A stretch of DNA of 64,000 nt from Naegleria gruberi (lineage: Eukaryota). The notes beneath the pieces were generated by a model. It was not told where the DNA came from and did no database searches. It saw only the letters and a list, made by a program, of their open reading frames with translations. Shown one piece after another: positions 1 through 58,240 of the stretch (positions within the stretch are counted from its first letter, which is position 1; each line of letters starts with the position of its first letter). The stretch lies in assembly GCA_000004985.1 (NCBI GenBank), contig GG738858.1, one strand, 5' to 3'. Position numbers and translations under genes: made by a program.

Positions 1-117
1 AAATAAGTTAAATTTTAAAAAAATTAAACATGTTCAAGTTTTTTCAGAATGGTTATTTGAATTTAATTTTATTAATGAAAATACAAAAAAATTTATTAAA
101 TTTATTAAATATTTAAA

Positions 118-1832
118 TTAAATATCTTGAATTTCTTTTTTTAAAATTTCTAAATTTTGATCAAATCTAATAAATTTACCAAATTGATTTAAATTATTAT
201 ATAAATTATTCATAAAATCATCCATAAAACAAAAACATAATAATTTAAAATGTCTAATTTCAGATTGTTCTAAATATGGTAATTGTTTTCTTTTAATATC
301 AATTAAAATTTTACAAATTGGATCAATTAAATAAAAACCAAAATCTAAATTTTCTAATAAATCTAAAAAACAAATTTCTTTTAAATCATTTAAATAAATT
401 AAAATATCATTTAATAATTCAGCTAGAGGTAAAAATTCTAAAATTTTTAAATTATTTTGATAATTATCTTTAAATTTATATTTTAAAATTGATTCTTTAA
501 AATTATTTAAAAATAAATTCATAAAAAATTTAAAATTATAATTTAATTTTTTAATAAATAAATTAATAATAATAGGTCTAATATCAATTCCAATTTTAGA
601 TAAAGTATTTCCTAAAAATAAACATTCATTTAATAATTTTTTATATTCTTCTCCATTTAAAATTGAATCTTGTAAAAAATTATTTAAATTATTTAAATAT
701 GGTTTAATTAAATGTTGAATACATGAAGATAAAATTAAATCTAAATTTGTAAATATACTTTTATATTGTGTTATAATTTCAAATATAAAATTTTTATATA
801 AATTTGTTAATTTTATAAAATTTTCAAAATTATTTGAAAAATCTAATTGTTGATTTAAATAAAAAATTCTTGATTGTAAAAATAACATTTTAATTTCTTC
901 TTCATTTTGTGTTATTTGCATTCTTTTTAAAATTCCAATTATTTGTATACTATTTTTAATATTAATTTCTTGTTTTAATTTATAAATTAATTGTGATAAT
1001 ATTGTTTTCATTATTAAATTAATTTCAATTATTATATTTTTAGTAATTTCTATATTTGGATATTGTTCATATATATCATATCCAATTTCATATATATCTA
1101 ATGCTTCTGTATATAATTGATTTTGTATACATAATTTTAATAAATTTGGTATTTCTAATATTTGTAATATTCTATTTTGATTTTCATTTAAAATTAAAAT
1201 TTTACTCTTTTCAATTTTATATTCAGATTGTTGTTGATATTGTAAAGTTTCTAATAAATTTTTAATTTTTAAATAAATTTCATCATTAATTGTAATTGTT
1301 AATTCATTTTTTAATTTATTAGTATTAGAATTAGAATTATTATTAGAATTATTAATAGTATTAGATGATGGTGATGATGTAGATATTGATTATTATTAGA
1401 ATTAATAGAAGGTGATATTGTTGTTGTTGTTGTATTTAAAAGTGATAAATTATTTAAATCATCTAATTTTTGATAATATTCATTTAATATATCCTTTTTT
1501 AAATCTAGTAATTGAATACATTCTGATTGAAGTTTTTCTGTTTCTTGTTTAATACTTTGAAACACTTTTTCATTATTTAAAAATACATTATAGTTTTTAG
1601 ATGAAAATTCAATCATTCGCTTTTTTAAATTTGTTAATTGTTGAGGAATTTCATATTCTTGTTCTCTAATTAAATGTTCTATATTATTAGAAAAATAATG
1701 ATGAAGATGATTAGAAGATGATGATGTTATTGTTGATGATGATGATAGCGATGCTGATGATGAAGGAATATTAAATAGTGAAGATGATGATGATGATGGT
1801 GTGATGGTCATGGATGAAGAAAGGCTTGTCAT
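118..1832 (-). CDS. Vps51/Dor1 (COG8)-like vesicle-tethering complex subunit. Single exon, with an apparent 1-nt frameshift at about 1385-1400.
   Basis: ORF 1311..1832 (-) and ORF 118..1011 (-) join into one continuous reading frame if a 1-nt indel is allowed inside the (AAT)n tract near 1385-1400. There are no g residues there, so no GT..AG intron is possible. The frame-0 tail 'HHHHHLILLIIL' is junk, and the other frame carries sensible coding sequence through to 118. The N-terminal coiled-coil segment 'IREQEYEIPQQLTNLKKRMIEFSSKNYNVFLNNEKVFQSI' resembles the Vps51/Dor1 domain. Confidence 0.4.
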
Positions 1833-2072
1833 TTTTTTATTACGTGGGCTTTTTTGATCAATAGATATTAATTGATGATATTGTAAATCATCATCACTAT
1901 ATCGGAATCTTTAAATTACACACAGATGGATAAATCTAATAGCATTGAACAAAAAGGCTAATAACAATTTGATGGATTCATAATTTGTATTGTACTTTTT
2001 ATTGGTGTGAAGTTGGTGAAGAAGGCTTTGAAATAAATTCGTTAACATACAAATTTTAAATTTAAAAAAAAA

Positions 2073-6080: not shown

Positions 6081-8016
6081 ATCGTCCTCTAAGAAAGAGT
6101 CCTCCTCTTCTGATAAAAAGGATAAAGATTCCTCAGAGTCTAAGAAGAAGGATAAAGATTCTGAAAAGAAGAAATCCAAGAAGGATTCCGATAAGAAGGA
6201 TAAGGATTCTGAAAAGAAGAGAAAGAGAGACTCTGAAAAATCTTCACCTTCTTCCTCATCTAAAAAGAAGAAGGAAGTTGTTGAACCTGTTACACCAACC
6301 ACTGTAAAAATCAAGTTAAATACACCAATTACAACACCGTTAGCTAGCAGTTCAACTTCAATGACAACACCTGAACAACCTAAAAAGAAAAAACCTTCTT
6401 CAAAATCCAAATCAGAAAAGTTAACTACACCTGCTTTAACAAGTGAAAAATCGACCAGTTCAAGTGCTTCTGCATCCTCATCATCTGCTATTGGTAGTAG
6501 TAGTAGTAGTAGTGGTAGTAGTAGAGGTGGTACAAGTCTATCAATTAAGAAGGAAATTAATATTGATGATCAACTTGTAACACCTGCAGCAGCAGCAACA
6601 ACAATAGCACAAACACAAGAAATTGGTAAGAATGAAAAGGAATCTATTGAAAAGAAATTGAAAAATCGTGAAGCTAAAAAGAATCAATGTAAAGCAACTC
6701 GATTAATTTTAATTACATTTGATACAAGTGAAATTAAAGTTTATGTTGAATTGGATGATGATTCACCAACAGCAGATGTAATTTATCGTAGTGTACCATT
6801 AGCATCACCTCTAGTACAATCACCTGGTAAAGGAATTGTTTATTTTACATGTGAAATTGAACATATTGAATTAGAAGAAACAGCAAGATCTGAAGTTAAA
6901 CAAGGTGAAATTGCATTCTGGGTTAGTGGTACAGCATTTGTTTTGGGATTTGGTAAAACAGTATTTTCACTTGCTAATGAAACACGTCTCTATCAACCAT
7001 GTAATATATTTGGTGAAATGATGTATCCAGTTAAATCATTACAAAAAACAGCATTACAACAAAAAGTAACTGTTAGTCGTTTCCCTAGAGTTTATATTGA
7101 TTTACCTGAACTTGATAAACGTATCGATATTGATATGTATGATACATTTAAAGATATTACAAATGGATATATTGCACCTAGATTACCATTTACTAGACAA
7201 TTTATGCCTTTATTTGGTAGAATATTATATTTTAATATTGGACATATTGATACATCACATTTAGAATCAGTTTCACCTGGTTTTCATAGAGATTATTTAT
7301 ATCCAGGTGAAATTGCTTATTGGGCAGGTGGTGATTCACTTTTACTTGGTACAGGTCCAACAGATATTAAGAAACACAATCATAATTCAAAGGAAATTAG
7401 ATATAATTTATTGGAAAATTGTTTTATTATTGGTAAAATTGTTTCAGCTGATTATAATTTATTACCTGATTTAATAGAAAAATATCCACACACACCACTC
7501 TATTTTAATAGACGTGAATTGGTTATTACCATTGATTTTGAACCAAATTTAAATGAACAAATTAATGGTGAAGGTGCTGTTAATAGTTTGGATATTTTAA
7601 TTGGAGTTTCAGGTACAATGAGTGGAGATATTATATTTGATACTTGTTTTAATGGATATGAAACAAGAGGTCATGAAATTACTCAACCACAAGGTGATAA
7701 ATGTGGTATTGTTGGAATTAAATTAAATCCAAAAGAAAATCCAATTTTAGAAACACTTCAACATGAAATTAATAATGCAACTGAAACTGCAAAACCACAA
7801 GAAGTTGTTTTATTTTGGGATTCACATACTATTGGTTTTCCATTTTCAAATAATCCTGAAACTGCTCCTTATAATTTACCTGAAATGGCAAATCCATTTG
7901 GAAGTTTTAAACAAGTTTTAAATATGGAAATGAGTTATTATCAATTTATTAACTTTTTACAAAACAGAAAAGTTAAACAATTTACAATTACAAAGAGAGA
8001 AATTGAATATAATTAA
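6040..8016 (+). CDS. In-frame (+1) continuation of TAF2. It holds a K/S/D-rich tail (like the human TAF2 lysine-rich C-terminus), then two tandem cyclophilin-like (PF04126-type) domains.
   Basis: The frame-1 ORF is open from upstream of 6040 to the TAA at 8016. Codon periodicity in the K/S-rich part is strong: 'KKDSKKKESSSS...KKRKRDSEK'. The duplicated motif 'GEIAFWVSGTAFVLGFGKT' / 'GEIAYWAGGDSLLLGTGPT' matches the G-D/E-I-A-Y-W...G..L.I.(F/Y)G signature I recall for cyclophilin-like domains. It is linked to the TAF2 frame by a 1-nt shift somewhere in 6030-6077, with no room for an intron. Confidence 0.5.
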   Translation, partial: DSKKKESSSSSKSKSSSKKESSSSDKKDKDSSESKKKDKDSEKKKSKKDSDKKDKDSEKKRKRDSEKSSPSSSSKKKKEVVEPVTPTTVKIKLNTPITTPLASSSTSMTTPEQPKKKKPSSKSKSEKLTTPALTSEKSTSSSASASSSSAIGSSSSSSGSSRGGTSLSIKKEINIDDQLVTPAAAATTIAQTQEIGKNEKESIEKKLKNREAKKNQCKATRLILITFDTSEIKVYVELDDDSPTADVIYRSVPLASPLVQSPGKGIVYFTCEIEHIELEETARSEVKQGEIAFWVSGTAFVLGFGKTVFSLANETRLYQPCNIFGEMMYPVKSLQKTALQQKVTVSRFPRVYIDLPELDKRIDIDMYDTFKDITNGYIAPRLPFTRQFMPLFGRILYFNIGHIDTSHLESVSPGFHRDYLYPGEIAYWAGGDSLLLGTGPTDIKKHNHNSKEIRYNLLENCFIIGKIVSADYNLLPDLIEKYPHTPLYFNRRELVITIDFEPNLNEQINGEGAVNSLDILIGVSGTMSGDIIFDTCFNGYETRGHEITQPQGDKCGIVGIKLNPKENPILETLQHEINNATETAKPQEVVLFWDSHTIGFPFSNNPETAPYNLPEMANPFGSFKQVLNMEMSYYQFINFLQNRKVKQFTITKREIEYN

Positions 8017-47493: not shown

Positions 47494-48720
47494 ATGACAT
47501 CAACAAGTGAACAAGTCCCACAACAACTTGCTGTTGTTGAAAGTGGAATCCCATTAATTAAAGAAGGAGATACAATTCTAGTAAAATTAAATAGTGGTTC
47601 AATGATTTTACAACAACATATTAAACCAGAAACAAATTTAAAAATCGGAAAGAAACAAACTTTTCCTTTAAAACTTTTAATAGGACAACCATATTATGCC
47701 TTCTATGAAATTTTGTCATCACAAAATGAAGGAGAGAAGCAACCATCAGTAGTTTTAAAACGTATGTTGTATGATCCTGATAGTGAGGAAGCTTCTGCTG
47801 TTATTCCTGGTGATGATGAAGCACCACAAGAAGAAATGCAAGATGAAGAAGGTGAAACTGTTGATGCTAATACAAAGAGATTAATTGATAATAACAAATC
47901 ACAAACTTTAACTCAAGATGAAATTTTAGAATTAAAAAAACAAGGAGTTGAAGGAAAGGAAATTATCAGCAAATTAATTGAAGGAAGTAAATCTTTCCAA
48001 GTTAGAACTCAATTTTCCCAACAAAAATACTTGAAGAGAAAGAAGAAGAAATATTTAACTTACTTTAAAGTTATTGATCCTTCTGCATATGATATTTGTG
48101 ATTTTTACTTTTCAAAGAATCCTGAGAAAATTAGTCATATGAGAGTTGATGGACTTGCTCAATTATTAACTTTAGGTTCTATTTATCCAAATAGAAAAGT
48201 AATGGTAATGGAAACTTGTATGGGTTTAGTTACTGCTGCTGTTTTTGAAAGAATGGGATGTTATGGTGAAATTATTCGTGTAGCTCCAGATGATATGCTT
48301 GGTAAACATGTTCATGCTGTTACCTATTTGAATATTAACAGAAATTTAGCTTCTAGTGTTGTTAGAGATGTTCCATTTGGAAAACTTGTATCTGGTGATA
48401 TGTCTGATGAAAATGCTACTGATGAAAATATGGTTGATTGTTTATTGATTGCTACTAATCAATATAGTCCAATCTCAGTTCTTACAAACTTGTATCCTTA
48501 TCTTAGAGAATCAGGATCATTTGCTATTTATTCTTCATACAGAGAACCATTAGAAGAATGTCACAACAAATTAAAGGATGACAAGTCAGCTGTTTTGGTT
48601 CAATTGACAGAAACATGGATGAGAGAATACCAAGTTCTTCCAAAGAGGACTCACCCAATGATGACAACGTCTAGTGCAAGCGGTTTCGTTTTGTCAGGTA
48701 TCAAAGTAAAGATTGATTAA
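47494..48720 (+). CDS. trm6: tRNA (adenine58-N1)-methyltransferase non-catalytic subunit TRM6 (GCD10/TRMT6).
   Basis: 'NKSQTLTQDEILELKKQGVEGKEIISKLIEGSKSFQVRTQFSQQKYLKRKKKKY' matches human TRMT6 'GKSQKLTQDDIKALKDKGIKGEEIVQQLIENSTTFRDKTEFAQDKYIKKKKKKY'. Also 'MVMETCMGLVTAAVFERMG' and 'ETWMREYQVLPKRTHP'. Confidence 0.85.
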   Translation: MTSTSEQVPQQLAVVESGIPLIKEGDTILVKLNSGSMILQQHIKPETNLKIGKKQTFPLKLLIGQPYYAFYEILSSQNEGEKQPSVVLKRMLYDPDSEEASAVIPGDDEAPQEEMQDEEGETVDANTKRLIDNNKSQTLTQDEILELKKQGVEGKEIISKLIEGSKSFQVRTQFSQQKYLKRKKKKYLTYFKVIDPSAYDICDFYFSKNPEKISHMRVDGLAQLLTLGSIYPNRKVMVMETCMGLVTAAVFERMGCYGEIIRVAPDDMLGKHVHAVTYLNINRNLASSVVRDVPFGKLVSGDMSDENATDENMVDCLLIATNQYSPISVLTNLYPYLRESGSFAIYSSYREPLEECHNKLKDDKSAVLVQLTETWMREYQVLPKRTHPMMTTSSASGFVLSGIKVKID

Positions 48721-51683
48721 TCTGTGTCAATAATTTTCTTTGGAGATCCACCAAATGATTGTCTTCTTGTCAGTCTTCTCATGTTGGCTGAATCACTAAG
48801 ATTCTCACTTGTTGCAACTGGAGTTCTTGTTTGCTTAATAGGACTATTTCTTCTCTTGACTGTTTTTCTTATCTTTTTACCTTCGATTTTTTCTGCGGCA
48901 GGATCATTACTACTTGTGCTAGTGTCAACACTATCATCAGAATCAGCGTTTGGATTAAAGACAGATATTGGACTGATATCACTAATAGATCTTGGTGTTT
49001 CGTAAGCCTTCTTTTCCATGTCAGGAGTTTTGGTTTGTTGACTTGTGGTAGGTGGTTGTACTGGCTGAACCTTATCTTTAATTACACTACTTCCAGATGA
49101 AAGCAAAGGGGTATTCGTGTTGGTTTCAATATTTGGAGTTGATGGATTGGAAGTGCAAATCGTTAACTTTTCTGGTGTTGATTTGAAACTGTCAATAGTC
49201 GAGGTTCTAGATTCTATTTTTTTCTCCCTTACTTTATCTTTCAAGGACTTATTTTCTTCCATAACAGTTTTGTTAATCTCAAGAATTCTTCTGTTGGTAG
49301 TGTTCAAATGTTCTACTTGTTCTTCAAGCTCTTTAATTCTTTCTGAAGAGGAGAGTTGGGCTGAATTTTTGAGAGTTTGTCGCAACCTATCTTCACTGTC
49401 AGCAGCTTTTTCTTTTTCAAGCATCATCATTCTTTCGCTTGATTTTATCTTTGCATTCTTCGTTGATATTTCTCTTTCTAATTTTCTAATTGTTTCTTTT
49501 TGAGATTCCGTCTCAGTGTTCAAAAATGAAACTTGTTCCTGAAGCTTTTTCATCGAATCCTCAAGCTGTCGTTTTCTTTCAGTGGATGATTCCAAAACCT
49601 CAGTTGTTTGTTTAAGAGTTTCTTCTGTGTTTGAATTTTGTAATCTCACTTTGTTATAGTTATCCTTTAATTTGGCAATAACTTCTTGTAATTCACCAAT
49701 ATTTCTTTGCAATTCCGACTTATTTTCTTGTAAGATGGCTATTGTTCTTTGCAGGTTTGTGTTTTCTTCTTTAAGTGCATCATTTTCCAATCTTTCAGTG
49801 TGTAATTGATCTCCAAACTTATCTTTCTGCTCTTTTAGCTCTTGGAATGAGTTTTCCAAATCATTTCTGAGATTTTGAACGTCTTGCATCAATTTTGAGT
49901 TTTCTTGTTTGTAAACAACTATTTTGTCTGACTGCTCTTTAGTTAGAGTTTCTTGGGAGGTAAGATCTTTTTTGAGTTTCTTGATTGCATTACTTAAATT
50001 CAACATTTGGTCTTTCATTTTAGATTTTGAGTCAGACAGCTGCACAATCTCAAAGTTCATTTGCTCTTGTAATGACTGGAGTCTCTCCTCATAATTTTTG
50101 ATAATCTGTTCATTTTCCTTATTCTTTTCCATTATTAGTGATTCAATAAAATTGTTGTGATAGTGAGGCATTGTTTCATAAATCCAATTAGTCATTAAAT
50201 CCGCCAACAATGTGTTTTTATCTCCTTTTGCTTTTTCGTTATATGAATCCAAACACTCCCTAAATTTCAAATTCATTTCTTCAATATTTCGAAAACTTCC
50301 AGATGTTGAAATCTGTGAAAAGGAAGAGCTCAGAATCTTGCTGTTGTACTCATAATTTATACTCCTAACCTCCTCTCTCACTATTTTAAAAATTTGAACA
50401 ATTGAATCATGTAATTGTCCAACATGGAATTGAACATCTCTTACCACAAGCTTTGAATTTTCCAAGAAATAAGAAACTGCTTCTGATTCTGATTCGAAGT
50501 GAATGTTTTCCAACTCTGTTTGATCCACGTTCTGTCTTAACAGCTTTTGCATTTTTGTTTTGTAAATTTTGATAGATTCTGAATGAACAGCATCACATTC
50601 AGTTTTCACTACATTACTCCAACAAGAATCCACTATAATAGAGCCATCATTGATGGCATTACAATAGTTCTCACACAAACTTATGAACATCCTACCATTC
50701 AACATTCTTCCTCCCAGTTCTTTAGGAGCAACTGTGTCTAATATTTTTTGTTTGAGTTTTTCTATTTGATTCCTAAACTCTGGTCTTATTTCATAGGATT
50801 CCAATTTTGAGGCATTTTGTAATTTCTTTTCATCGTGAATAGGTCTTACCAGAGTGAAACAATCTCTATCTCGGAAATATTGTTTCAGAGAGGCCTTAAT
50901 TTGTTGCTTATTCCTTTCAGTTTCGGTGTATCTTTCCTCACTGGATAAGGCAAATTCAAGATAATTCTTTGGTGTAATTTGTAAATCCAACGAAAAGTCT
51001 CTCACAACCCATAAAAAAGATGGGAATATTGCTTGATTATCCAATCCTCCAAGTTTTGATTTAACATATTTTGAAAGTTCAGTTACCAACCTAATAGATT
51101 TAGAAACTAGTTCAAACCAACAACTTACCCTAATCTGGTTATTGCGTTGTCATCAATGCTTCCTTGACTATTATAAATAAACATTGAACTCATTAGTAAA
51201 GCAAGAGAGAACACCTAAAACTGTTGAAGAAATACAACCAATAACAACTTACTTGTGTATCATAGGTCTCATTTGCACTGAAGGATCCAATTCCCTCCGA
51301 ATCAACAATTAATAATCTAAAATCTGGATGGTTGTCATTGCTTACTTTCATCGGAACGCTCCAGACCCATAATCCTTTTGTGCAGGGTAAATGTGAGGGA
51401 CTGGTAGTAAAGCTGTATTATTATTTACTAATGAATATTATTGGTTTTTAAAAACATACCCATCATTCCTATCTAAAATTTGATTAAGTAAAAAGCTTTT
51501 CCCCGATCGATAAACTCCAGCTATCGAAAGTACAGCAACCGGTTCTTTAATTTTCGAAATCACAGAGATTGCTTTTTTATCCACTTGAAACTTTCCATCA
51601 ATGTATGATATCAAAGGAATTTGTTGTGGCTGCAGCGTTGACAGCGAGGGCGATGTTGAATAGTCTTGTAGTGATGGTTCCAT
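48717..51683 (-). CDS. Guanylate-binding-protein (GBP) family large GTPase with a long C-terminal coiled coil. Four exons: join(51683..51460, 51412..51253, 51214..51129, 51090..48717).
   Basis: G1 'LSIAGVYRSGKSFLLNQIL', 'TKGLWVWSVP', 'LLIVDSEGIGS', 'VFSLALLMSSMFIYNSQGSIDDNAITRL', 'FLWVVRDFSL'. These match human GBP1 block by block. Introns of 47, 38 and 38 nt, all with GTAAGT/GTATGT donors and phase-consistent acceptors. Confidence 0.85.
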
Positions 51684-51949
51684 TTTTTACTAAGGATTGG
51701 TTCAAAAATATGGCGCCAAAACATGTATTTGCTTTTAGCGCCAAAAATAAATCAATATATTTGATGTATGGTGACATATTCTGAGGAGTGAATAAGAGTT
51801 AATACTATTAATATTAATTATTCTGAACAACAACATCATGAGATTGATTATTTATCTTTTTAATAGACTTAAAACAAACTATTTTGTAAAAATTCAAAAA
51901 GGTATTGTAATATCAATAGAATTTGTTATTTACATTTAGTGCCAAAAAA

Positions 51950-54900
51950 ATGCAACCAGCCAATCGAAAGCCAATCAAGGTCAAACCATCGAAAGGTTCT
52001 AGCACACAACAACCTGTAATTATAACAACCTCATCATCTAATCATCAACAAAATAATTCCGAATCACATTCTCCATCACCTCTAATTTTATCACCCACAA
52101 CCACTGGCACAAATAATTATGTATTTGAAAATGAAGGAGAACAAAACGAACAAAAAACCAACAAGAAAATCAGAGCAAAAAGAACAGGAGGGATATTGGG
52201 AAACTTTTTCGACGTTTCTAAAAATTTAAATGAAAATACACTAAATCAAATGGAATCCAAGATGAAAGAAATTATTGAATCGAGAAATTTGTTTAAAGAA
52301 AATAACTTGGAGTTGTGTGAAATGATCATGTCTGCTGATGTGGAATCGAAGAATGAATCAATTTCTCAACAAGAAATTCTCAAAATTGATTTGATAAATA
52401 GGCAAATGGCCGAATTGGAATCATTTGAAACAAATCTGAATAACTTTATTCAATCAAATGGCTCTTCTGGAATTACAAATCATCTTGTAAACGCTGTTAA
52501 TACAAGAAATGCTATGAGAAATGAGTGTATGAATAATCTTAACGAAGTTACTAACTTGTTGGGTGAAACATTGGAATCAATGAAAAATGACATCCCCGTA
52601 GAAAGGATTCAAAAAATAGATGAAATTCATTCAAAAATTCTTTTAGAAGAAGATGTTTTATCAGTTTCTGGTTCTGGTGAGTCTTTCAATATGTATGAGT
52701 TTAATAGGAGATCAAAGGAATACTTTGAGTGGGTTAAAAAATCCAGTCCAAAACTGATTATTCAATACAAGGAAACAAAGGCTGTTTTCAAGAAGTTTCT
52801 AGAAGCAATGGAAAAAGAGCTAAATCTTATGAAAGAGGTTAAAGAGGAGGAGAAGAAAATGATGGATAATTTTGAGTATATAATTACCTACACTCCTGAA
52901 TATTTGGAGGCAAAGCGACAAACAACTGCTGAGCCAAGTGAAAGAAAGACTCATATCAAGGAGTTACATAGCTACTATTTGAAACGTAAAATTGAAATGG
53001 AATCCAAAACACAACTACCACTTAAACCAGACCTTGAAAGCGTCAATCTATTTTACAATCAGCTTAACTCTTTGAAAACAGACTTGAGAGAGGCTAAAAG
53101 AAATCATCTAAAATTGAAATTTGAAAAAGAAAATCATGAGTTGGATGGAGTTTCTCAGTCTATTCTACAAATTTCAACACAAAAAGTTCAAGAAGCATCT
53201 GAGGTAGTTCATAGAATCGAAGAAAAGATTCAGCTATTTGAATCTAATCTAGAAAAATCCATCAAATTGCATCCAGAAATTTTAATTTACATTAACAGTT
53301 TCTCTAAGAATGATGATCTTATTCCTATATCAATTAAGGATACAAAGTTGGAGGTGAAGAGATCTATCAAAGATTATGAAATATTGAAAATAATCAATCC
53401 AAGGGTTTGCAAAGCAAAATTTGCTAACCAAATATCAATAATCAAACAGTACTCTTTTTCAGATAGCAAATCAAGAAAAGAGTTTATGAAGGAGGTTCAA
53501 ATTTTACACAAAATGAATCATCCTTGTATTGTAAAGATAGAAGCGTACTTTTGTGAGAATGACTTTGTATTTATTCAAATGGAACACAAAGGAGATTTAA
53601 CTCTAGCTGATTGGCTCCTTAAATCTCCTTCAGAATATGAAAAACGAAATGTATTTCACTCTGTGGCACAAACTTTGAAATATGTGCACGACTTTAATAT
53701 TATTCACTGTGACATCAAACCAGAGAATATAATAATGTCACCAATCGGTTCTAAATCAATTGGATCCGTACAGGAGATATATGAATCATATAGACCTATT
53801 CTTATTGACTTTGATATATCAGTTGACAAGAATTCCTTACAAAATTCTTTAGCAATCCGATCCACTTTAACTTACTTGGCTCCAGAAGTTGTTCATGCAG
53901 CTTCTACAGGTGCAGATTTCAAGAGTGTTTTGAATACATCAATAGATGTTTGGTCATTTGGTGTTATGATGTTTAAGGCATACTATCCAAATGATGAGGT
54001 GTTGCTTCTTCCAAACGAACACTCAGTAAGAATACCAGAACATGAAAATCAATATTTGCAAGATCTTTTATCAAATATTTTACAAAGAGACGCAAAAGAT
54101 AGACCTTGTGCTGAAGATATTTACTCTCATATCTATTTCAACTCGTCCATCATGAATGAACTAGTATCTCAAAAACAAATAGTTAGTACAGAAGACAAGA
54201 TGCAATCATTCAATAGATTTCTGCATCACTACAAGAAAAGAATGCAAAGGAACACTTCAGATGTTATTCAAATACGTATGAGAAGAGATGCAATAGTAGG
54301 TCACACATTACAAGCATTTTCATCTATGGAAATCAATGACTTACTTTTGAGACTTCAAGTGCAATTTGTTGGTGAAATTGGAATGGATTTGGGAGGAATT
54401 ACATCTAATATGTATACAGAGTTCTTCAGACAATCAATACAAAATGATCATAACATTTTTGAATGTGGTTCAAGCTCTAAAACTGGAGGTTACCTACCAA
54501 AGGCAGATGCACCAGTTGAGGTTTGTGAAAGTATTGGAAAAATTTTAATCAAAACAATTTACGATCAAAGAGTTATTCCAGAAGTGCTTTCTCCTTTCAT
54601 ATTCAAGTTTCTTTCACACAAATATTCATCAAGCGATCCTGATTACAATTCTTTGCAAGTAACTTTCAGAGATTTGGAACAATTTGATGAATCTATGGCA
54701 AGATCTTTGAGAATGCTCCTTACTCATGAAGGAGTGCACGAATGGGAAATTTCTTTTGATGGCCTGGGACAAGACTCTAATAGAATGGTAAATGATCAAA
54801 ATAAGCACGATTATGTTAAAATGAAAATGAGAAATGTTCTCTTACTCTCAAGATTAGAACAATTGAAAGCTATTAGGAAAGGTTTTAATTCGCTTGTTGA

Positions 54901-55309
54901 GCTTCAGCCTCAGCTGGCATTATTTAGTTGGAAAGAGCTAATGCTGCTTTGTTGTGGAAAGGATTATATTGATGTAAAATCAGTGATTGACCTATTGAAG
55001 TTCAAAGATTTCCCTACTAATAGTAGGACTCCTTTATTTTTCACTCAATTTATTTCTTCACTCTCTAGCATTCAGTTAAGGCAATTTATTGAATTCTCCA
55101 CTGGTCAATGTGGAATTTCCTACGGATGGCAATCCAAGGCTCTGAGCATCACTGTACAATACTCTTCCTCTTCAGTTGATTCATTACCTGTTTCTCATAT
55201 TTGCTCATTCATATTAGACCTTCCTGACTATAACAATTATCAACTTTTAGAAACGAAAATTAAGCAAGCTTTCGAATTTACCTCATCCTCCGGCTTTTAC
55301 ATTGCTTAG
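51950..55309 (+). CDS. Protein with a coiled-coil N-terminus, a central protein-kinase-like domain and a C-terminal HECT ubiquitin-ligase domain.
   Basis: Kinase segments: 'ISIIKQY', 'EFMKEVQILHKMNHPCIVKI', 'HCDIKPENIIM', 'LIDFDISV', 'LTYLAPEV', 'DVWSFGVMMF'. HECT segments: 'LQVQFVGEIGMDLGGITSNMYTEFF' and C-lobe 'LPVSHICSFILDLPDYNNYQLLETKIKQAFEF' with the catalytic Cys. It is a single uninterrupted 1120-aa frame from the ATG at 51950. Confidence 0.8.
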   Translation: MQPANRKPIKVKPSKGSSTQQPVIITTSSSNHQQNNSESHSPSPLILSPTTTGTNNYVFENEGEQNEQKTNKKIRAKRTGGILGNFFDVSKNLNENTLNQMESKMKEIIESRNLFKENNLELCEMIMSADVESKNESISQQEILKIDLINRQMAELESFETNLNNFIQSNGSSGITNHLVNAVNTRNAMRNECMNNLNEVTNLLGETLESMKNDIPVERIQKIDEIHSKILLEEDVLSVSGSGESFNMYEFNRRSKEYFEWVKKSSPKLIIQYKETKAVFKKFLEAMEKELNLMKEVKEEEKKMMDNFEYIITYTPEYLEAKRQTTAEPSERKTHIKELHSYYLKRKIEMESKTQLPLKPDLESVNLFYNQLNSLKTDLREAKRNHLKLKFEKENHELDGVSQSILQISTQKVQEASEVVHRIEEKIQLFESNLEKSIKLHPEILIYINSFSKNDDLIPISIKDTKLEVKRSIKDYEILKIINPRVCKAKFANQISIIKQYSFSDSKSRKEFMKEVQILHKMNHPCIVKIEAYFCENDFVFIQMEHKGDLTLADWLLKSPSEYEKRNVFHSVAQTLKYVHDFNIIHCDIKPENIIMSPIGSKSIGSVQEIYESYRPILIDFDISVDKNSLQNSLAIRSTLTYLAPEVVHAASTGADFKSVLNTSIDVWSFGVMMFKAYYPNDEVLLLPNEHSVRIPEHENQYLQDLLSNILQRDAKDRPCAEDIYSHIYFNSSIMNELVSQKQIVSTEDKMQSFNRFLHHYKKRMQRNTSDVIQIRMRRDAIVGHTLQAFSSMEINDLLLRLQVQFVGEIGMDLGGITSNMYTEFFRQSIQNDHNIFECGSSSKTGGYLPKADAPVEVCESIGKILIKTIYDQRVIPEVLSPFIFKFLSHKYSSSDPDYNSLQVTFRDLEQFDESMARSLRMLLTHEGVHEWEISFDGLGQDSNRMVNDQNKHDYVKMKMRNVLLLSRLEQLKAIRKGFNSLVELQPQLALFSWKELMLLCCGKDYIDVKSVIDLLKFKDFPTNSRTPLFFTQFISSLSSIQLRQFIEFSTGQCGISYGWQSKALSITVQYSSSSVDSLPVSHICSFILDLPDYNNYQLLETKIKQAFEFTSSSGFYIA

Positions 55310-55499: not shown

Positions 55500-55867
55500 G
55501 ATATTTAGTTTATTGCTACTGAAATATTCATGACACAACAACATTTCAAGGTTAGTTGTTTCCGTTGAGAGTTGACGTTCAACATTGTATTCCCCAACCT
55601 GTTTCTAAAAAGGTGAAAGACAAACCCGATCTTTTTCCCTCTCATCATAAATCTCCTCACAGAAAAAAATATTTCAACTCTGTAATCAAACTCTTTATTT
55701 CCTCGGTTAAAGAGAAAATTGTTACCCAGAGTTTCATTTGAAATCTTTTGGATTTCATCATCAAGTTGTATTATTATTAAAATATAAAAAGATCAACGTT
55801 TGATCCTAGAGTTTCATCATCAACACCATTTGTAAAATATATAGTAAAATAGTAAATATTGTGGACG

Positions 55868-58240
55868 ATGAGTGGCAATCCTTTTAACTTGTTGAGTATT
55901 TCTATTGCGGAATTTGATAAACTAAGTGGAAATAGTTTAACTCACACATACCCGACAGATGTTCACTTGGAAAAGTATTACCCTACCAGTAATATTGCTG
56001 ATAAATGTATTCCTGATGGAGCTCATATTTACCATGAAGATCAAACCGGAATAATATTACCAATAACCGAGGATAACACAGAATTAATTCAAGTGCTTCA
56101 CAAGTACATTTCTTCCTTTAAATTCACAACTTCACCTACACCACCCAAACCAATACCATCATCACCATCATCTAATATACCAAATAATAATGATAATGGT
56201 TTTCAAAATTCACAATACTTATATGGAAGTGTTTTCTTCAGGAACAAACTTGATGACAGAGTGCGAAGAGGAGCAATTCAAAAGAGTATTCTTGTTGTAA
56301 CAACAAAGCCACTCTTCACTCTCTTTATTCCTCTTATGAGGGATGCAATTGATAGGTTAGTATATTCATACATTGTTCAATGTTCATCATTTGATTAGAA
56401 TTATAAGTATTGAGGAAGCACACATAGAGAAATCTGAAAAGGAAGTAAGGGAAGTTTGCCGAGATCAAGTTACACTAGTGTTAAAAGATCTTTATGATAG
56501 CTTAAAGGAATCTATAGATGTTGCCTCAATGAACGCAACAAGAAAATTATCGATATCCTTCTCCGATAAGATTTATAATTTAAAAGTACCAAAGTAAGTT
56601 TATTTTAATATTTCCTTGTTAACACAGGAACTAGATGTAAAGAAGAGAATTTTAATGGTGCTTCTCTGATAGACCTTTTAACAATATTTGAAAAACACAT
56701 TTGTTATATTTGGGAAGCATTGCTCTTCTCGCGAAGAATTGTATTTGTAGGATCGCCAGCTAAAGTTGTGACGATGTGCTGTCTCTCTTGTCCTTTATTA
56801 ATTTCTCCTCTTAAAGGAATAACCAATAGGTAAGTTTTTGATTATTTTAAATGTGGAAACGAATTATATTTTAGGATTTCGCCCTATGTGACTATTGGAG
56901 ATCAAAAATTGAGTGAACATGTCTATGTGTGTGGAATGACTAATCCATTACTAGAAAATTCTAAATATGGATGGGATTACTATGCCAGTATTGCTGCTGG
57001 TAAAGTACAATACAAAAGACAAAAAATCTCATTAATTTCAAAATCAGATTTTAAAGATTTTATCAAACAAGTACTTTCTGGAATTAAAAAAGGAAAAAAG
57101 GAAAATTGGGTTCGTGAACAATTCACACAATTCAATTTAAATTTCCTCAAACACGTTCCAAACTCTAAGAAGAAAAGTATCACTCAAAATTTTATTCATA
57201 GTCATGTATATAAGAGATTTTGTAGTACAAATGTGTTGTCTAGCTCTCCACCCTCTCCAATTGCAGATAACACTCTTTCGGTGGGCAGTGTTAGATTTCC
57301 AAAGATTTCATTTGAGGGCTCTGACTCTCCTTTAAGAATATTCCCTCCAAAACTTGTGAAAAGCAAACATTCACAAAGTTATAGTGGTGAATTGAGATTA
57401 TCACCCAAAAAAACACCCACTTCTATTAAGAGTATATACAGGAAGCTTAACCCATTCATTTCATCCAAAAATGAATCACAATTTTCTCAAAAGGATCTCA
57501 TTTCTCAAGTCGTATCTGATGGAGAACTGGAGTTCCTTTGGCCATATATAATGCCTAACAGTGAATCCATGTTAGATTGGACTGTAACAGGGCATGTTAC
57601 ATTGTACAAAATGACATTATGTATCAAAGATGGTTTAAATACCTTTTATTCAAGACATAGTGGACCTTTGAGCCACAAATATGAAAAAGTGCTAGCAAAT
57701 ATTCATTTCATATTAGGAAAACTTTTTAAAGAAAACGAAGAAGTAATTTATTCACAGGAACAACTTGCTTATTTGGATAGAAAATCACTCGATGAAAAGG
57801 AAAAAATACTGAATGAACAAACAGCTAAAAACAAGAGAGATAGTTCATTCCTACATATCAAATTGCAAAAACCATTAGAACAAGAATATATGGTGATCAA
57901 CTCAGAAGTTAAGCAAACATCTCAAAGATCTTTGTTTGTACATAAGGTTGTTCGTCTTCAACTTGATTCTAACAAGCAATATACCTTTTTGGAGAACCCA
58001 GAATATTTTGTTTACGTTGTGAATCGAGTTAGTGAAGAACAAACTGAGCTCACACAAGTTCATGTAATAAGAGCAACTAATCTTAGTGAAAAACGAGACA
58101 AGTATACATACTTTAGTTCAGCTTTAGAAACTAGAAAATTACTAATCGAAAGATTGGATAAAGATGCAACAGATTATAGCAACATTGTAGTGAGTGATTC
58201 AGATTCGAGTGAGGATGAGGATTTAGGATCAAGTGAATAA
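55868..58240 (+). CDS. avl9: AVL9 (DENN-related late-secretory-pathway protein) homologue. Four exons: join(55868..56355, 56399..56593, 56635..56829, 56875..58240).
   Basis: 'LYGSVFFRNKLDDRVRRGAIQKSILVVTTKPLFTLF' (uDENN-like), 'NGASLIDLLTIFEKHICYIWEALLFSRRIVFVGSPAKVVTMCCLS' (cDENN core), 'HVYVCGMTNPLLENSKYGWDYYA'. Introns of 43, 41 and 45 nt with GTTAGT/GTAAGT donors. Confidence 0.75.

What the first reader, a model, noticed from the sequence alone, without database searches (positions are those of the whole stretch)
51950..55309. One ORF joins a protein-kinase-like domain to a HECT E3 ubiquitin-ligase domain
A continuous 1120-aa frame holds a coiled-coil N-terminus and an ePK-like catalytic core. 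The core keeps the VAIK lysine, the alphaC glutamate, an HCD catalytic loop and APE, but has DFD in place of DFG and no glycine-rich loop. A complete HECT domain follows, with the catalytic Cys in 'LPVSHICSFILDLPDY'. I do not know a kinase-HECT architecture in the standard eukaryotic domain repertoire. If real, it would place phospho-signalling and ubiquitin ligation in one polypeptide, possibly a phospho-dependent self-regulated E3. The region has no stop codons, gaps or frame changes, so an assembly artefact is unlikely.
Basis: partly seen in the sequence, partly recalled or inferred. Interest (0 to 1): 0.78.

Follow-up and report, generated by a model that had tools for sequence, protein, structure and literature searches.

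The report
Naegleria kinase–HECT ubiquitin ligase (TKUL-like)
The window really does encode one 1119-residue Naegleria gruberi protein that joins a protein kinase domain directly to a HECT ubiquitin-ligase domain, but this pairing was already noted in this species in 2013 and a Leishmania relative (TKUL/HECT12) has since been characterised, so it is an uncharacterised member of a known family.

Summary
ORF 51923-55309 (+), first ATG 51950, encodes 1119 aa. Pfam Pkinase matches aa 487-730 (E 5e-32) and HECT matches aa 824-1111 (E 2e-41). The catalytic residues K499, E515, D588, N593 and D620 are present, as are HECT Cys1085 and the -4 Phe.

The organism is Naegleria gruberi (Heterolobosea), not an amoebozoan. 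N. lovaniensis and N. fowleri have orthologues, syntenic in N. lovaniensis, and the kinase-HECT junction is as conserved as the domains.

The architecture is not new. Leishmania LmjF35.4000 was described in 2005. Grau-Bové 2013 noted kinase domains on N. gruberi HECT proteins. L. mexicana TKUL/HECT12 is reported to need autophosphorylation for ligase activity.

The Naegleria protein aligns with TKUL in a single stretch (E 1e-59). Of the proteins gathered here, 79 of 153 carry kinase followed by HECT, from Discoba, Amoebozoa, Archaeplastida, Malawimonada and Metamonada. All complete members lack a canonical glycine loop yet keep the catalytic residues.

The most likely function is a kinase-gated HECT E3. 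This is a new member of a known kind, of modest interest.

The parts
51684..51949 (.). Short divergent intergenic region between the GBP-like gene (- strand) and the kinase-HECT gene. It is the presumed shared promoter region.
   Evidence: The GBP-like first exon ends at 51683 and the first ATG of the kinase-HECT ORF is at 51950. N. lovaniensis has the same divergent arrangement, with a 200-bp gap.
51950..55309 (+). Complete single-exon coding sequence of the kinase-HECT protein (1119 aa plus TAG).
   Evidence: ORF listing, codon check, and 100% identity over 1119 aa to the N. gruberi protein model P0001.
51950..52195 (+). aa 1-82: low-complexity, probably disordered N-terminus rich in S, T, N and Q.
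   Evidence: No secondary structure in the full-length model, which is low confidence. The region aligns poorly with the orthologues.
52196..53302 (+). aa 83-451: helical N-terminal region with no Pfam family, only 33% identical among Naegleria species. It is the likely targeting or oligomerisation part.
   Evidence: Long predicted helices at low pLDDT, no Pfam hit, 33% identity.
53033..53269 (+). aa 362-440: heptad-like pre-kinase helices ending in the conserved 'HPE' motif (HPEI in this protein). This is the best-conserved part of the N-terminal region.
   Evidence: Heptad test segments 362-440. It is the only N-terminal stretch with pLDDT 50-64. Invariant residues run through aa 372-443. 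Its C-terminal part, from aa 406, aligns with L. mexicana TKUL aa 582-620, where the motif reads HPEL.
53357..54154 (+). aa 470-735: eukaryotic protein kinase domain. Lys, Glu, Asp, Asn and Asp are all present, the glycine-rich loop has no glycines, and the motifs read HCD and DFD.
   Evidence: Pfam Pkinase E 5e-32 over aa 487-730. The best solved kinase is 9gmp, the Leishmania TKUL kinase domain, over aa 474-732. Motif table. AlphaFold module model with pLDDT mostly above 90 here.
53444..53446 (+). Codon of K499, the ATP-anchoring lysine that corresponds to the VAIK motif.
   Evidence: AAA = K. The column is invariant in the 33-member family alignment, as K60 of A2.
53711..53713 (+). Codon of D588, the catalytic aspartate of the HCD motif.
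   Evidence: GAC = D. The column is nearly invariant in the family, as D149 of A2.
53807..53809 (+). Codon of D620, the metal-binding aspartate of DFD (the DFG equivalent).
   Evidence: GAC = D. The column is nearly invariant in the family, as D181 of A2.
54155..54262 (+). aa 736-771: junction between the kinase and HECT domains. It is a helix leading into the HECT N-lobe rather than a loose linker.
   Evidence: 64-67% identical among three Naegleria species. Predicted helix at residues 308-329 of the module model. The kinase-to-HECT gap is only 10-15 residues in many family members.
54263..55306 (+). aa 772-1119: complete bilobal HECT domain.
   Evidence: Pfam HECT E 2e-41. phmmer against E6AP 1c4z covers aa 772-1114. 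The modelled fold superposes on the HUWE1 HECT~Ub structure 6xz1 with target-normalised TM-score 0.83 and rmsd 3.1 A.
55202..55204 (+). Codon of C1085, the ubiquitin-thioester cysteine of the HECT domain.
   Evidence: TGC = C. It aligns with the E6AP active-site cysteine motif and is invariant in 33/33 and 47/47 family members.

Best explanation
This is the Naegleria gruberi member of the kinase-HECT (TKUL-like) family of ubiquitin ligases. Shown here: one intron-less gene encodes a helical N-terminal region, an ePK kinase domain and a full HECT domain, joined by a short conserved helix. All catalytic residues of both enzymes are retained. The whole pre-kinase-helix, kinase, junction and HECT cassette is homologous and colinear with Leishmania TKUL/HECT12 and with dozens of proteins from several eukaryotic supergroups. 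Those proteins differ mainly in their N-terminal repeat or targeting domains. Inferred by homology, not shown for this protein: the HECT domain takes ubiquitin from an E2 onto Cys1085 and passes it to substrates. The adjoining kinase domain would act as a built-in switch, with ATP binding and autophosphorylation placing the kinase in a conformation that allosterically permits HECT activity, as reported for TKUL. The variable helical, partly heptad-like N-terminus would supply localisation, oligomerisation or substrate choice.
For: Domains and residues. Single polypeptide: the ORF is continuous and identical to the deposited model. The N. lovaniensis and N. fowleri orthologues have both domains, and the N. 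lovaniensis gene is syntenic. The junction is 64-67% identical, against 59-61% for the domains and 33% for the N-terminus. Transcriptome-derived relatives from Pharyngomonas, Soliformovum, Echinamoeba, Gloeochaete and Gefionella carry both domains in one ORF. Family: among the proteins gathered from a search of 1.84 billion representatives plus earlier hits, 79 of 153 have kinase then HECT, usually 10-60 residues apart. All 33 aligned members pass both Pfam models. Link to TKUL: a single BLASTP HSP joins aa 406-1118 to aa 582-1342 of the L. mexicana protein, E 1e-59. 9gmp, the kinase domain of that Leishmania protein, is the best solved kinase for the single sequence. It is also the top hit overall for a family profile built without kinetoplastid sequences: 254.6 bits against 200 for GCN2, 187 for NEK1 and 184 for PLK4. 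Kinase likely active: the glycine-less loop is shared by all 47 complete members, including TKUL (LSSTVYHA), which is reported to autophosphorylate. K, E, D, N and D are invariant or nearly so. [quoted passage not shown] Structure: the module model has pLDDT 87.5 and a canonical HECT fold.
Against: There are no biochemical or expression data for the Naegleria protein. The primary TKUL paper could not be read, so the mechanism rests on two secondary descriptions. I could not check whether TKUL's autophosphorylation sites or interface residues are conserved. Identity to TKUL is only 24%. In a rough NJ tree the heterolobosean and kinetoplastid proteins form separate clades with unresolved deep nodes, so orthology is not shown. 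The N-terminus differs: TPR repeats in TKUL, a helical region here. The Naegleria lineage has HCD and DFD where TKUL has HGD and DFG, and the effect on catalysis is unknown. The model's pTM of 0.61 gives no confident inter-domain geometry.
Confidence: 0.62

Rival explanations
1. Cis-acting 'prime and tag' enzyme. The kinase domain's main job is not self-regulation. It phosphorylates bound substrates, creating or exposing a degron, and the adjacent HECT domain then ubiquitinates the same substrates.
For: Both active sites are fully conserved across the family. The N-terminal domains vary like substrate-recruiting modules: ankyrin, RCC1, Kelch, LRR and TPR. Nothing computed here separates trans-phosphorylation from autophosphorylation.
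Against: The only characterised homologue is described as using the kinase as an allosteric, autophosphorylation-dependent regulator of the ligase. The two readings are not mutually exclusive.
Confidence: 0.2
2. Pseudokinase scaffold. The kinase domain has lost phosphotransfer and serves only as a nucleotide-binding or structural module that holds or regulates the HECT domain.
For: The glycine-rich loop has no glycine (INPRVCKA). The HRD arginine is replaced by Cys and the DFG glycine by Asp. The Pfam match starts only at profile position 18.
Against: The residues normally lost in pseudokinases are all present: K499, E515, D588, N593 and D620. They are invariant among three Naegleria species and nearly invariant in 33 family members. 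The same glycine-less loop occurs in Leishmania TKUL, whose kinase activity and autophosphorylation are reported. The beta1-turn-beta2 hairpin is still modelled with high confidence.
Confidence: 0.12
3. Inactive HECT domain. The HECT part would be a divergent, non-catalytic G2E3-like domain, leaving the protein in effect a kinase with a HECT-fold adaptor.
For: Grau-Bové et al. placed the N. gruberi kinase-bearing HECT proteins in the fast-evolving 'GL-Bikonta' group next to G2E3, whose HECT domain is non-functional.
Against: The catalytic Cys is invariant in 47/47 complete members and -4 Phe1116 is present. Pfam HECT scores 143 bits. The domain is 59% identical among Naegleria species. The modelled fold matches the active HUWE1 HECT~Ub structure. 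Ligase activity is reported for TKUL.
Confidence: 0.04
4. Gene-model or assembly artefact that joins two neighbouring genes.
For: None found. I have no N. gruberi transcript data.
Against: The ORF has 1128 codons with no stop, with chance probability about 8e-41. Two other Naegleria genomes, Willaertia and transcriptome ORFs of distant relatives show the same fusion. The junction is conserved. One colinear alignment to Leishmania TKUL spans it.
Confidence: 0.02

Closest known systems
Leishmania mexicana TKUL / HECT12 (LmxM.34.4000; L. major LmjF35.4000; kinase-domain structure PDB 9gmp)
   Same: The order and spacing are the same: pre-kinase helix, ePK domain, short junction, C-terminal HECT. 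One BLASTP HSP covers the whole cassette (E 1e-59). Its kinase domain is the closest solved kinase structure. Both share a glycine-less 'glycine-rich' loop and a non-RD catalytic loop, and both keep the K/E/D/N/D residues, the HECT Cys and the 'GF' tail. TKUL is reported to be a dual kinase and ligase in which autophosphorylation is needed for ligase activity and a kinase inhibitor blocks the ligase allosterically. The null mutant loses fitness.
   Different: Identity is only 24%. TKUL has N-terminal TPR repeats, whereas the Naegleria protein has a disordered head and a helical, partly heptad-like region with no Pfam match. The motifs are HGD/DFG in Leishmania and HCD/DFD in Naegleria. The two fall in separate clades of a rough tree. 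Leishmania is a parasite and TKUL is called a virulence factor; N. gruberi is free-living.
'GL-Bikonta' HECT proteins with kinase domains (Grau-Bové et al. 2013, PMC3673628)
   Same: [quoted passage not shown] This is the same architecture in the same species.
   Different: The survey gave no function, no family-wide analysis of the kinase and no link to the Leishmania protein. I could not confirm that this exact gene is among their 'some proteins', because no supplement is held.
Other members of the kinase-HECT family with different heads
   Same: They share the same kinase-HECT cassette and pass both Pfam models. Examples are Tieghemostelium lacteum (RCC1-kinase-HECT), Anaeramoeba ignava (LRR/filamin-kinase-HECT), the EukProt protein 'Clim_evm80s218' (ankyrin-kinase-HECT), Willaertia and Pharyngomonas.
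   Different: The N-terminal modules are swapped: RCC1, LRR and filamin, ankyrin, Kelch, beta-helix or TPR. Several have a longer kinase-HECT spacer of 150-220 residues.
Canonical HECT E3s (E6AP/UBE3A, HUWE1, NEDD4/Rsp5 family)
   Same: The bilobal HECT fold, the active-site Cys and the C-terminal -4 Phe are shared. Sequence E-values are around 1e-22 and the target-normalised TM-score to HUWE1 HECT is 0.83.
   Different: There are no C2/WW, UBA/WWE or AZUL modules. Regulation by phosphorylation in those enzymes comes from separate kinases, whereas here a kinase is fused directly upstream.
Arabidopsis KEG (RING-kinase-ankyrin-HERC2-like E3) and plant U-box-kinase proteins; recalled from memory, not tested here
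   Same: They combine a protein kinase domain and a ubiquitin-ligase domain in one polypeptide.
   Different: Their ligase domains are RING or U-box adaptors, not a thioester-forming HECT. The domain order is different and there is no homology of the cassette.

Membership tests
Eukaryotic protein kinase superfamily (Pfam PF00069 Pkinase) | Profile match above the curated gathering score | tested here: met
   111.8 bits against a cut-off of 31.7, aa 487-730.
Eukaryotic protein kinase superfamily (Pfam PF00069 Pkinase) | Catalytic residues: beta3 Lys, alphaC Glu, catalytic-loop Asp and Asn, DFG Asp, APE | tested here: met
   K499, E515, D588, N593, D620 and APE 644-646. They are invariant in three Naegleria species and invariant or at least 90% conserved in 33 family members.
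Eukaryotic protein kinase superfamily (Pfam PF00069 Pkinase) | Canonical GxGxxG glycine-rich loop; HRD Arg; DFG Gly | tested here: not met
   The motifs read INPRVCKA, HCD and DFD. None of the 47 complete family members has a canonical GxGxxG loop, including the reportedly active TKUL, so this argues for a family variant rather than a dead enzyme.
Eukaryotic protein kinase superfamily (Pfam PF00069 Pkinase) | Phosphotransfer activity | not testable with these tools
   Needs recombinant protein.
HECT E3 ubiquitin ligases (Pfam PF00632) | Profile match above the gathering score, covering N- and C-lobes | tested here: met
   143.1 bits against a cut-off of 23.9, profile positions 13-300 of 306. 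phmmer against the E6AP HECT domain covers aa 772-1114.
HECT E3 ubiquitin ligases (Pfam PF00632) | Active-site cysteine in the C-lobe aligned with that of E6AP, and a C-terminal -4 Phe | tested here: met
   C1085 in LPVSHICSF aligns with LPTSHTCFN of E6AP. F1116 is at position -4. The Cys is invariant in the family.
HECT E3 ubiquitin ligases (Pfam PF00632) | Bilobal HECT fold | tested here: met
   The AlphaFold module model has pLDDT 87.5. Foldseek against 6xz1 (HUWE1 HECT~Ub) gives E 4.9e-23, target-normalised TM-score 0.83 and rmsd 3.1 A. This is a predicted structure, not an experimental one.
HECT E3 ubiquitin ligases (Pfam PF00632) | E2-dependent ubiquitin thioester formation | not testable with these tools
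   Needs biochemistry.
Kinase-HECT (TKUL-like) family | ePK domain immediately N-terminal to a C-terminal HECT domain in one polypeptide | tested here: met
   There are 10 residues between my phmmer domain envelopes, 470-735 and 745-1119. The junction is conserved.
Kinase-HECT (TKUL-like) family | Colinear sequence homology to Leishmania TKUL across both domains | tested here: met
   A single HSP joins aa 406-1118 to aa 582-1342, E 1e-59, 24% identity.
Kinase-HECT (TKUL-like) family | Kinase domain specifically related to the TKUL kinase rather than to a generic kinase group | tested here: met
   9gmp is the best solved kinase for the single sequence: 71.5 bits against 60.6 for ULK2. For a profile without kinetoplastid sequences it scores 254.6 bits against 200 or less for any other kinase. 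The identity of 9gmp as the L. mexicana protein comes from cluster membership.
Kinase-HECT (TKUL-like) family | N-terminal TPR repeats as in Leishmania TKUL | tested here: not met
   No Pfam family matches aa 1-470, while TKUL has TPR_1/TPR_2. N-terminal modules vary across the family, so this is probably not a defining feature.
Kinase-HECT (TKUL-like) family | One-to-one orthology with TKUL | tested here: inconclusive
   The NJ tree on 613 columns puts heteroloboseans and kinetoplastids in separate clades. Deep nodes are star-like and no support values were computed.
Kinase-HECT (TKUL-like) family | Ligase activity dependent on autophosphorylation, with allosteric coupling | not testable with these tools
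   This is reported only for L. mexicana TKUL, through secondary sources.
NEDD4-family HECT ligases | C2 and WW domains upstream of the HECT domain | tested here: not met
   No C2 or WW match in the Pfam scan at E up to 1.

The most novel reading that the evidence does not exclude
The kinase-HECT cassette may be an ancient eukaryotic signalling module, with a kinase switch wired to a ubiquitin ligase. On this reading it arose once, was retained in at least five supergroup-level lineages with interchangeable N-terminal targeting domains, and was lost from animals, fungi and land plants. The Naegleria lineage would then offer a free-living, culturable model. Because the N. fowleri orthologue shares the cassette, its ligase might be shut off with ATP-site kinase inhibitors, as reported for Leishmania TKUL.
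Probability: 0.35. Interest if true: 0.5.

Novelty: new member of a known kind. Interest (0 to 1): 0.3.

Why it matters
The value here is in placing the gene, not in discovering an architecture. The analysis ties an unannotated Naegleria 'predicted protein' to the recently characterised Leishmania TKUL. It also suggests that TKUL is not a parasite-specific curiosity but one member of a broad family of kinase-HECT ligases in protists, all of which share a glycine-less ATP loop. If the allosteric kinase switch is general, the family would be a natural example of phosphorylation directly gating ubiquitin ligation. The orthologue in the pathogen N. fowleri would then be a candidate target for kinase-type inhibitors.

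Tried and rejected
1. A word-indexed homologue search with the HECT part alone returned only one fragment and added nothing.
2. Literature searches for 'hectPK1', 'kinase-HECT' and 'HECT domain kinase' found nothing. The Dictyostelium kinome paper does not mention HECT or ligase. My recollection of a D. discoideum 'bifunctional kinase/NEDD4-like ligase' entry therefore stays unverified and is not used. A dictyostelid member, Tieghemostelium, was verified instead.
3. The primary TKUL paper (Fokkens et al. 2025, Mol Cell) is not held, so the phosphosites and interface could not be compared.
4. The full-length AlphaFold model from three sequences was unusable, with pLDDT 35.9. Only its secondary-structure trend is cited.
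6. I looked for a missed upstream exon encoding the extra N-terminal segment of the N. fowleri and N. lovaniensis orthologues. tblastn found nothing in the window, so the 51950 start stands.
7. No supplement of Grau-Bové 2013 is held, so I could not confirm that this exact gene is one of their N. gruberi kinase-HECT proteins.
9. The NEDD4-like and G2E3-like (inactive HECT) readings were considered and rejected on domain content and conserved catalytic residues.


Full report

Yes. The + strand carries an open frame from 51923 to 55309. Its first ATG is at 51950, an in-frame stop lies just upstream, and TAG is at 55307-55309. With this window's base composition, a stop-free run of that length has probability about 8e-41.

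Pfam scores both domains far above their curated cut-offs:
- Pkinase, aa 487-730: 111.8 bits against 31.7, E 5e-32.
- HECT, aa 824-1111: 143.1 bits against 23.9, E 2e-41.

Against solved structures, the HECT part aligns with E6AP over aa 772-1114. Naegleria LPVSHICSFILDLPDY lies over E6AP LPTSHTCFNVLLLPEY, so C1085 is the thioester cysteine.

- ISIIK (K499)
- MKEVQ (E515)
- HCDIKPEN (D588, K590, N593)
- DFD (D620-D622)
- APE (644-646)

The glycine-rich loop position reads INPRVCKA, and the Pfam match starts only at profile position 18. The HECT tail ends GFYIA, which puts Phe1116 at position -4.

The 'coiled-coil N-terminus' is only partly supported:
- No Pfam family matches aa 1-470.
- A three-sequence AlphaFold model is too poor for 3-D use (pLDDT 35.9). 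It draws aa 1-82 as unstructured and aa 83-451 as long helices.
- A crude heptad test is enriched over shuffles only in aa 95-124 and 362-440.

**2. Whose gene is it, and is it one gene?**

The translation is 100% identical over 1119 aa to a 'predicted protein' of Naegleria gruberi. That species belongs to Discoba/Heterolobosea, not Amoebozoa.

- N. lovaniensis (1239 aa) and N. fowleri (1268 aa) have 49%-identical orthologues with the same two Pfam domains.
- The N. lovaniensis gene sits next to the same divergently transcribed GBP-like gene as in the window, so it is a positional orthologue.
- Identity among the three species is 33% in the N-terminal region, 61% in the kinase, 64-67% in the 36-residue junction and 59% in HECT. 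The junction is therefore under the same constraint as the enzymes.
- In the confident module model (33-sequence alignment, pLDDT 87.5) the junction is a helix leading into the HECT N-lobe.
- Relatives assembled from transcriptomes carry both domains in a single ORF: Pharyngomonas, Soliformovum, Echinamoeba, Gloeochaete and Gefionella.

I found nothing that supports a fusion artefact. Direct N. gruberi transcript data are still missing.

**3. What family is it?**

I searched aa 440-1119 against 1.84 billion representative proteins. This gave 107 hits at E <= 1e-30, many aligned in one stretch across both domains.

- Re-scoring each domain separately showed that 79 of the 153 proteins gathered carry a kinase followed by a HECT domain, usually 10-60 residues apart.
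- All 33 complete, non-kinetoplastid members that I aligned hit both Pfam models.
- Named members span several lineages:
  - Heterolobosea: Willaertia, Pharyngomonas.
  - Kinetoplastea: Leishmania species, Phytomonas.
  - Amoebozoa: Tieghemostelium (with an RCC1 head), Soliformovum, Echinamoeba.
  - A glaucophyte (Gloeochaete) and a green alga (Cymbomonas).
  - A malawimonad (Gefionella).
  - Metamonada: Anaeramoeba (with LRR and filamin heads).
  - An ankyrin-headed EukProt protein, 'Clim_evm80s218'. The prefix suggests Corallochytrium, but that is my inference.
- Across the family the N-terminal modules differ (ankyrin, RCC1, Kelch, beta-helix, TPR, LRR), while the cassette is constant.

**4.

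In 47 complete cassettes none has a canonical GxGxxG glycine-rich loop, and most have no glycine there at all. The typical pattern is L-x-x-x-V-Y-x-A; Leishmania has LSSTVYHA. The middle residue of HxD varies: Cys in heteroloboseans, Gly in Leishmania, Arg in many others. DFD, DFG and DFE all occur.

By contrast the beta3 Lys and the HECT Cys are invariant. The alphaC Glu, catalytic Asp, Asn and DFx Asp are at least 90% conserved. That pattern fits an active, unusual kinase rather than a decaying pseudokinase.

**5. Comparison with what is known**

- Parsons et al. 2005 described Leishmania LmjF35.4000 as an ePK with TPR motifs and a HECT domain, a combination they had not seen in the other kinomes sampled.
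- Grau-Bové et al. [quoted passage not shown] The architecture in this very species is therefore already in the literature.
- The Leishmania protein is HECT12. Its null mutant loses fitness.
[quoted passage not shown] Its kinase and ligase activities matter in amastigotes, and its autophosphorylation is required for ligase activity.
[quoted passage not shown] 2025, Mol Cell 85:3711). I could not read that paper.

Three results link the Naegleria protein to TKUL:
- PDB 9gmp clusters with the L. mexicana protein. It is the best solved kinase for the Naegleria sequence.
- 9gmp is also the top hit overall for the family profile built without kinetoplastids: 254.6 bits, against 200 for GCN2, 187 for NEK1 and 184 for PLK4.
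- BLASTP joins Naegleria aa 406-1118 to L. mexicana TKUL aa 582-1342 in one alignment (E 1e-59, 24% identity). It starts about 65 residues before the kinase, in a helix ending in a shared HPE motif, and runs to the last residues.

The HECT part of the model superposes on the HUWE1 HECT~ubiquitin structure with target-normalised TM-score 0.83.

**6. Membership and limits**

The protein meets the tested defining features of ePKs, except the canonical glycine loop and the RD and DFG-Gly positions. It meets those of HECT ligases and of the kinase-HECT family.

It is not shown to be a one-to-one orthologue of TKUL:
- A rough NJ tree separates heterolobosean and kinetoplastid clades, with unresolved deep nodes.
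- It lacks TKUL's TPR head.

It is not a NEDD4-type ligase, since it has no C2 or WW domains.

**7. Mechanism**

Shown here: both active sites are intact and conserved, the junction is rigid-looking and conserved, and the cassette is homologous to TKUL.

Inferred:
- Ubiquitin is loaded on C1085 from an E2.
- The kinase domain acts as an ATP- and autophosphorylation-dependent allosteric switch for the ligase.
- The helical N-terminus, especially aa 362-440, provides oligomerisation or targeting.

Rivals, with my confidence in each:
- Substrate priming by the kinase followed by ubiquitination in cis (0.2). This is compatible with the switch.
- A pseudokinase scaffold (0.12).
- An inactive HECT domain (0.04).
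- A gene-fusion artefact (0.02).

**8. Verdict**

The architecture is known, was already noted in this species, and has now been mechanistically studied in Leishmania. I file it as a new, uncharacterised member of a known kind, of modest interest. The remaining value lies in three points: the apparent breadth of the family, the shared glycine-less ATP loop, and the existence of an N. fowleri orthologue.

Noticed in passing
P0002/P0003 N-termini (alignment A1 columns 1-100); window 51684-51949 for the absence: The N. lovaniensis and N. fowleri orthologues have about 110 extra N-terminal residues. These include a strongly conserved segment, IPTSML.VVDAICLGYPSISRERIIVLLKKYHYSEQKVREYLDQWMRT, which looks like a small UBA/CUE-type helical domain but has no Pfam hit at E<0.1. 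N. gruberi lacks it, and tblastn finds no trace anywhere in the window.
   Followed up: partly
window 48717-51683 (- strand): A guanylate-binding-protein-like gene lies divergently upstream. It is in two ORF pieces (48717-51089 and 51438-51683), which implies an intron of roughly 350 bp, and it has a long coiled-coil-like tail. The same neighbour is present in N. lovaniensis, so the locus is syntenic.
   Followed up: partly
window 55859-58240 (+ strand): Downstream ORF pieces have weak Avl9/Afi1 and SPA (DENN-related trafficking) matches. They are probably exons of one multi-exon gene. In N. lovaniensis the downstream neighbours are different: an unannotated 220-aa gene and then FBPase.
   Followed up: no
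L001 about 7083-7183 (N. lovaniensis); window about 53750-53800 for the equivalent region: The N. lovaniensis gene model has one 101-nt intron after aa 694, inside the variable insert between the kinase catalytic loop and DFD. N. gruberi has a continuous frame there. The insert differs in length in all three species and is the lowest-confidence internal stretch of the kinase-HECT module model, at model residues 163-170 = aa 602-609.
   Followed up: partly
window 1-2000: This stretch is extremely AT-rich, with 12% GC in the first kilobase and 20% in the second, and it contains short degenerate AT-rich tandem repeats. The rest of the window is about 30-35% GC.
   Followed up: no
protein cluster of P0027: The 90% cluster holding the Leishmania TKUL proteins also lists a 129-aa UniRef entry named 'TmrC' from Dehalobacter sp. 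(P0168). This is probably a clustering or contamination artefact.
   Followed up: no
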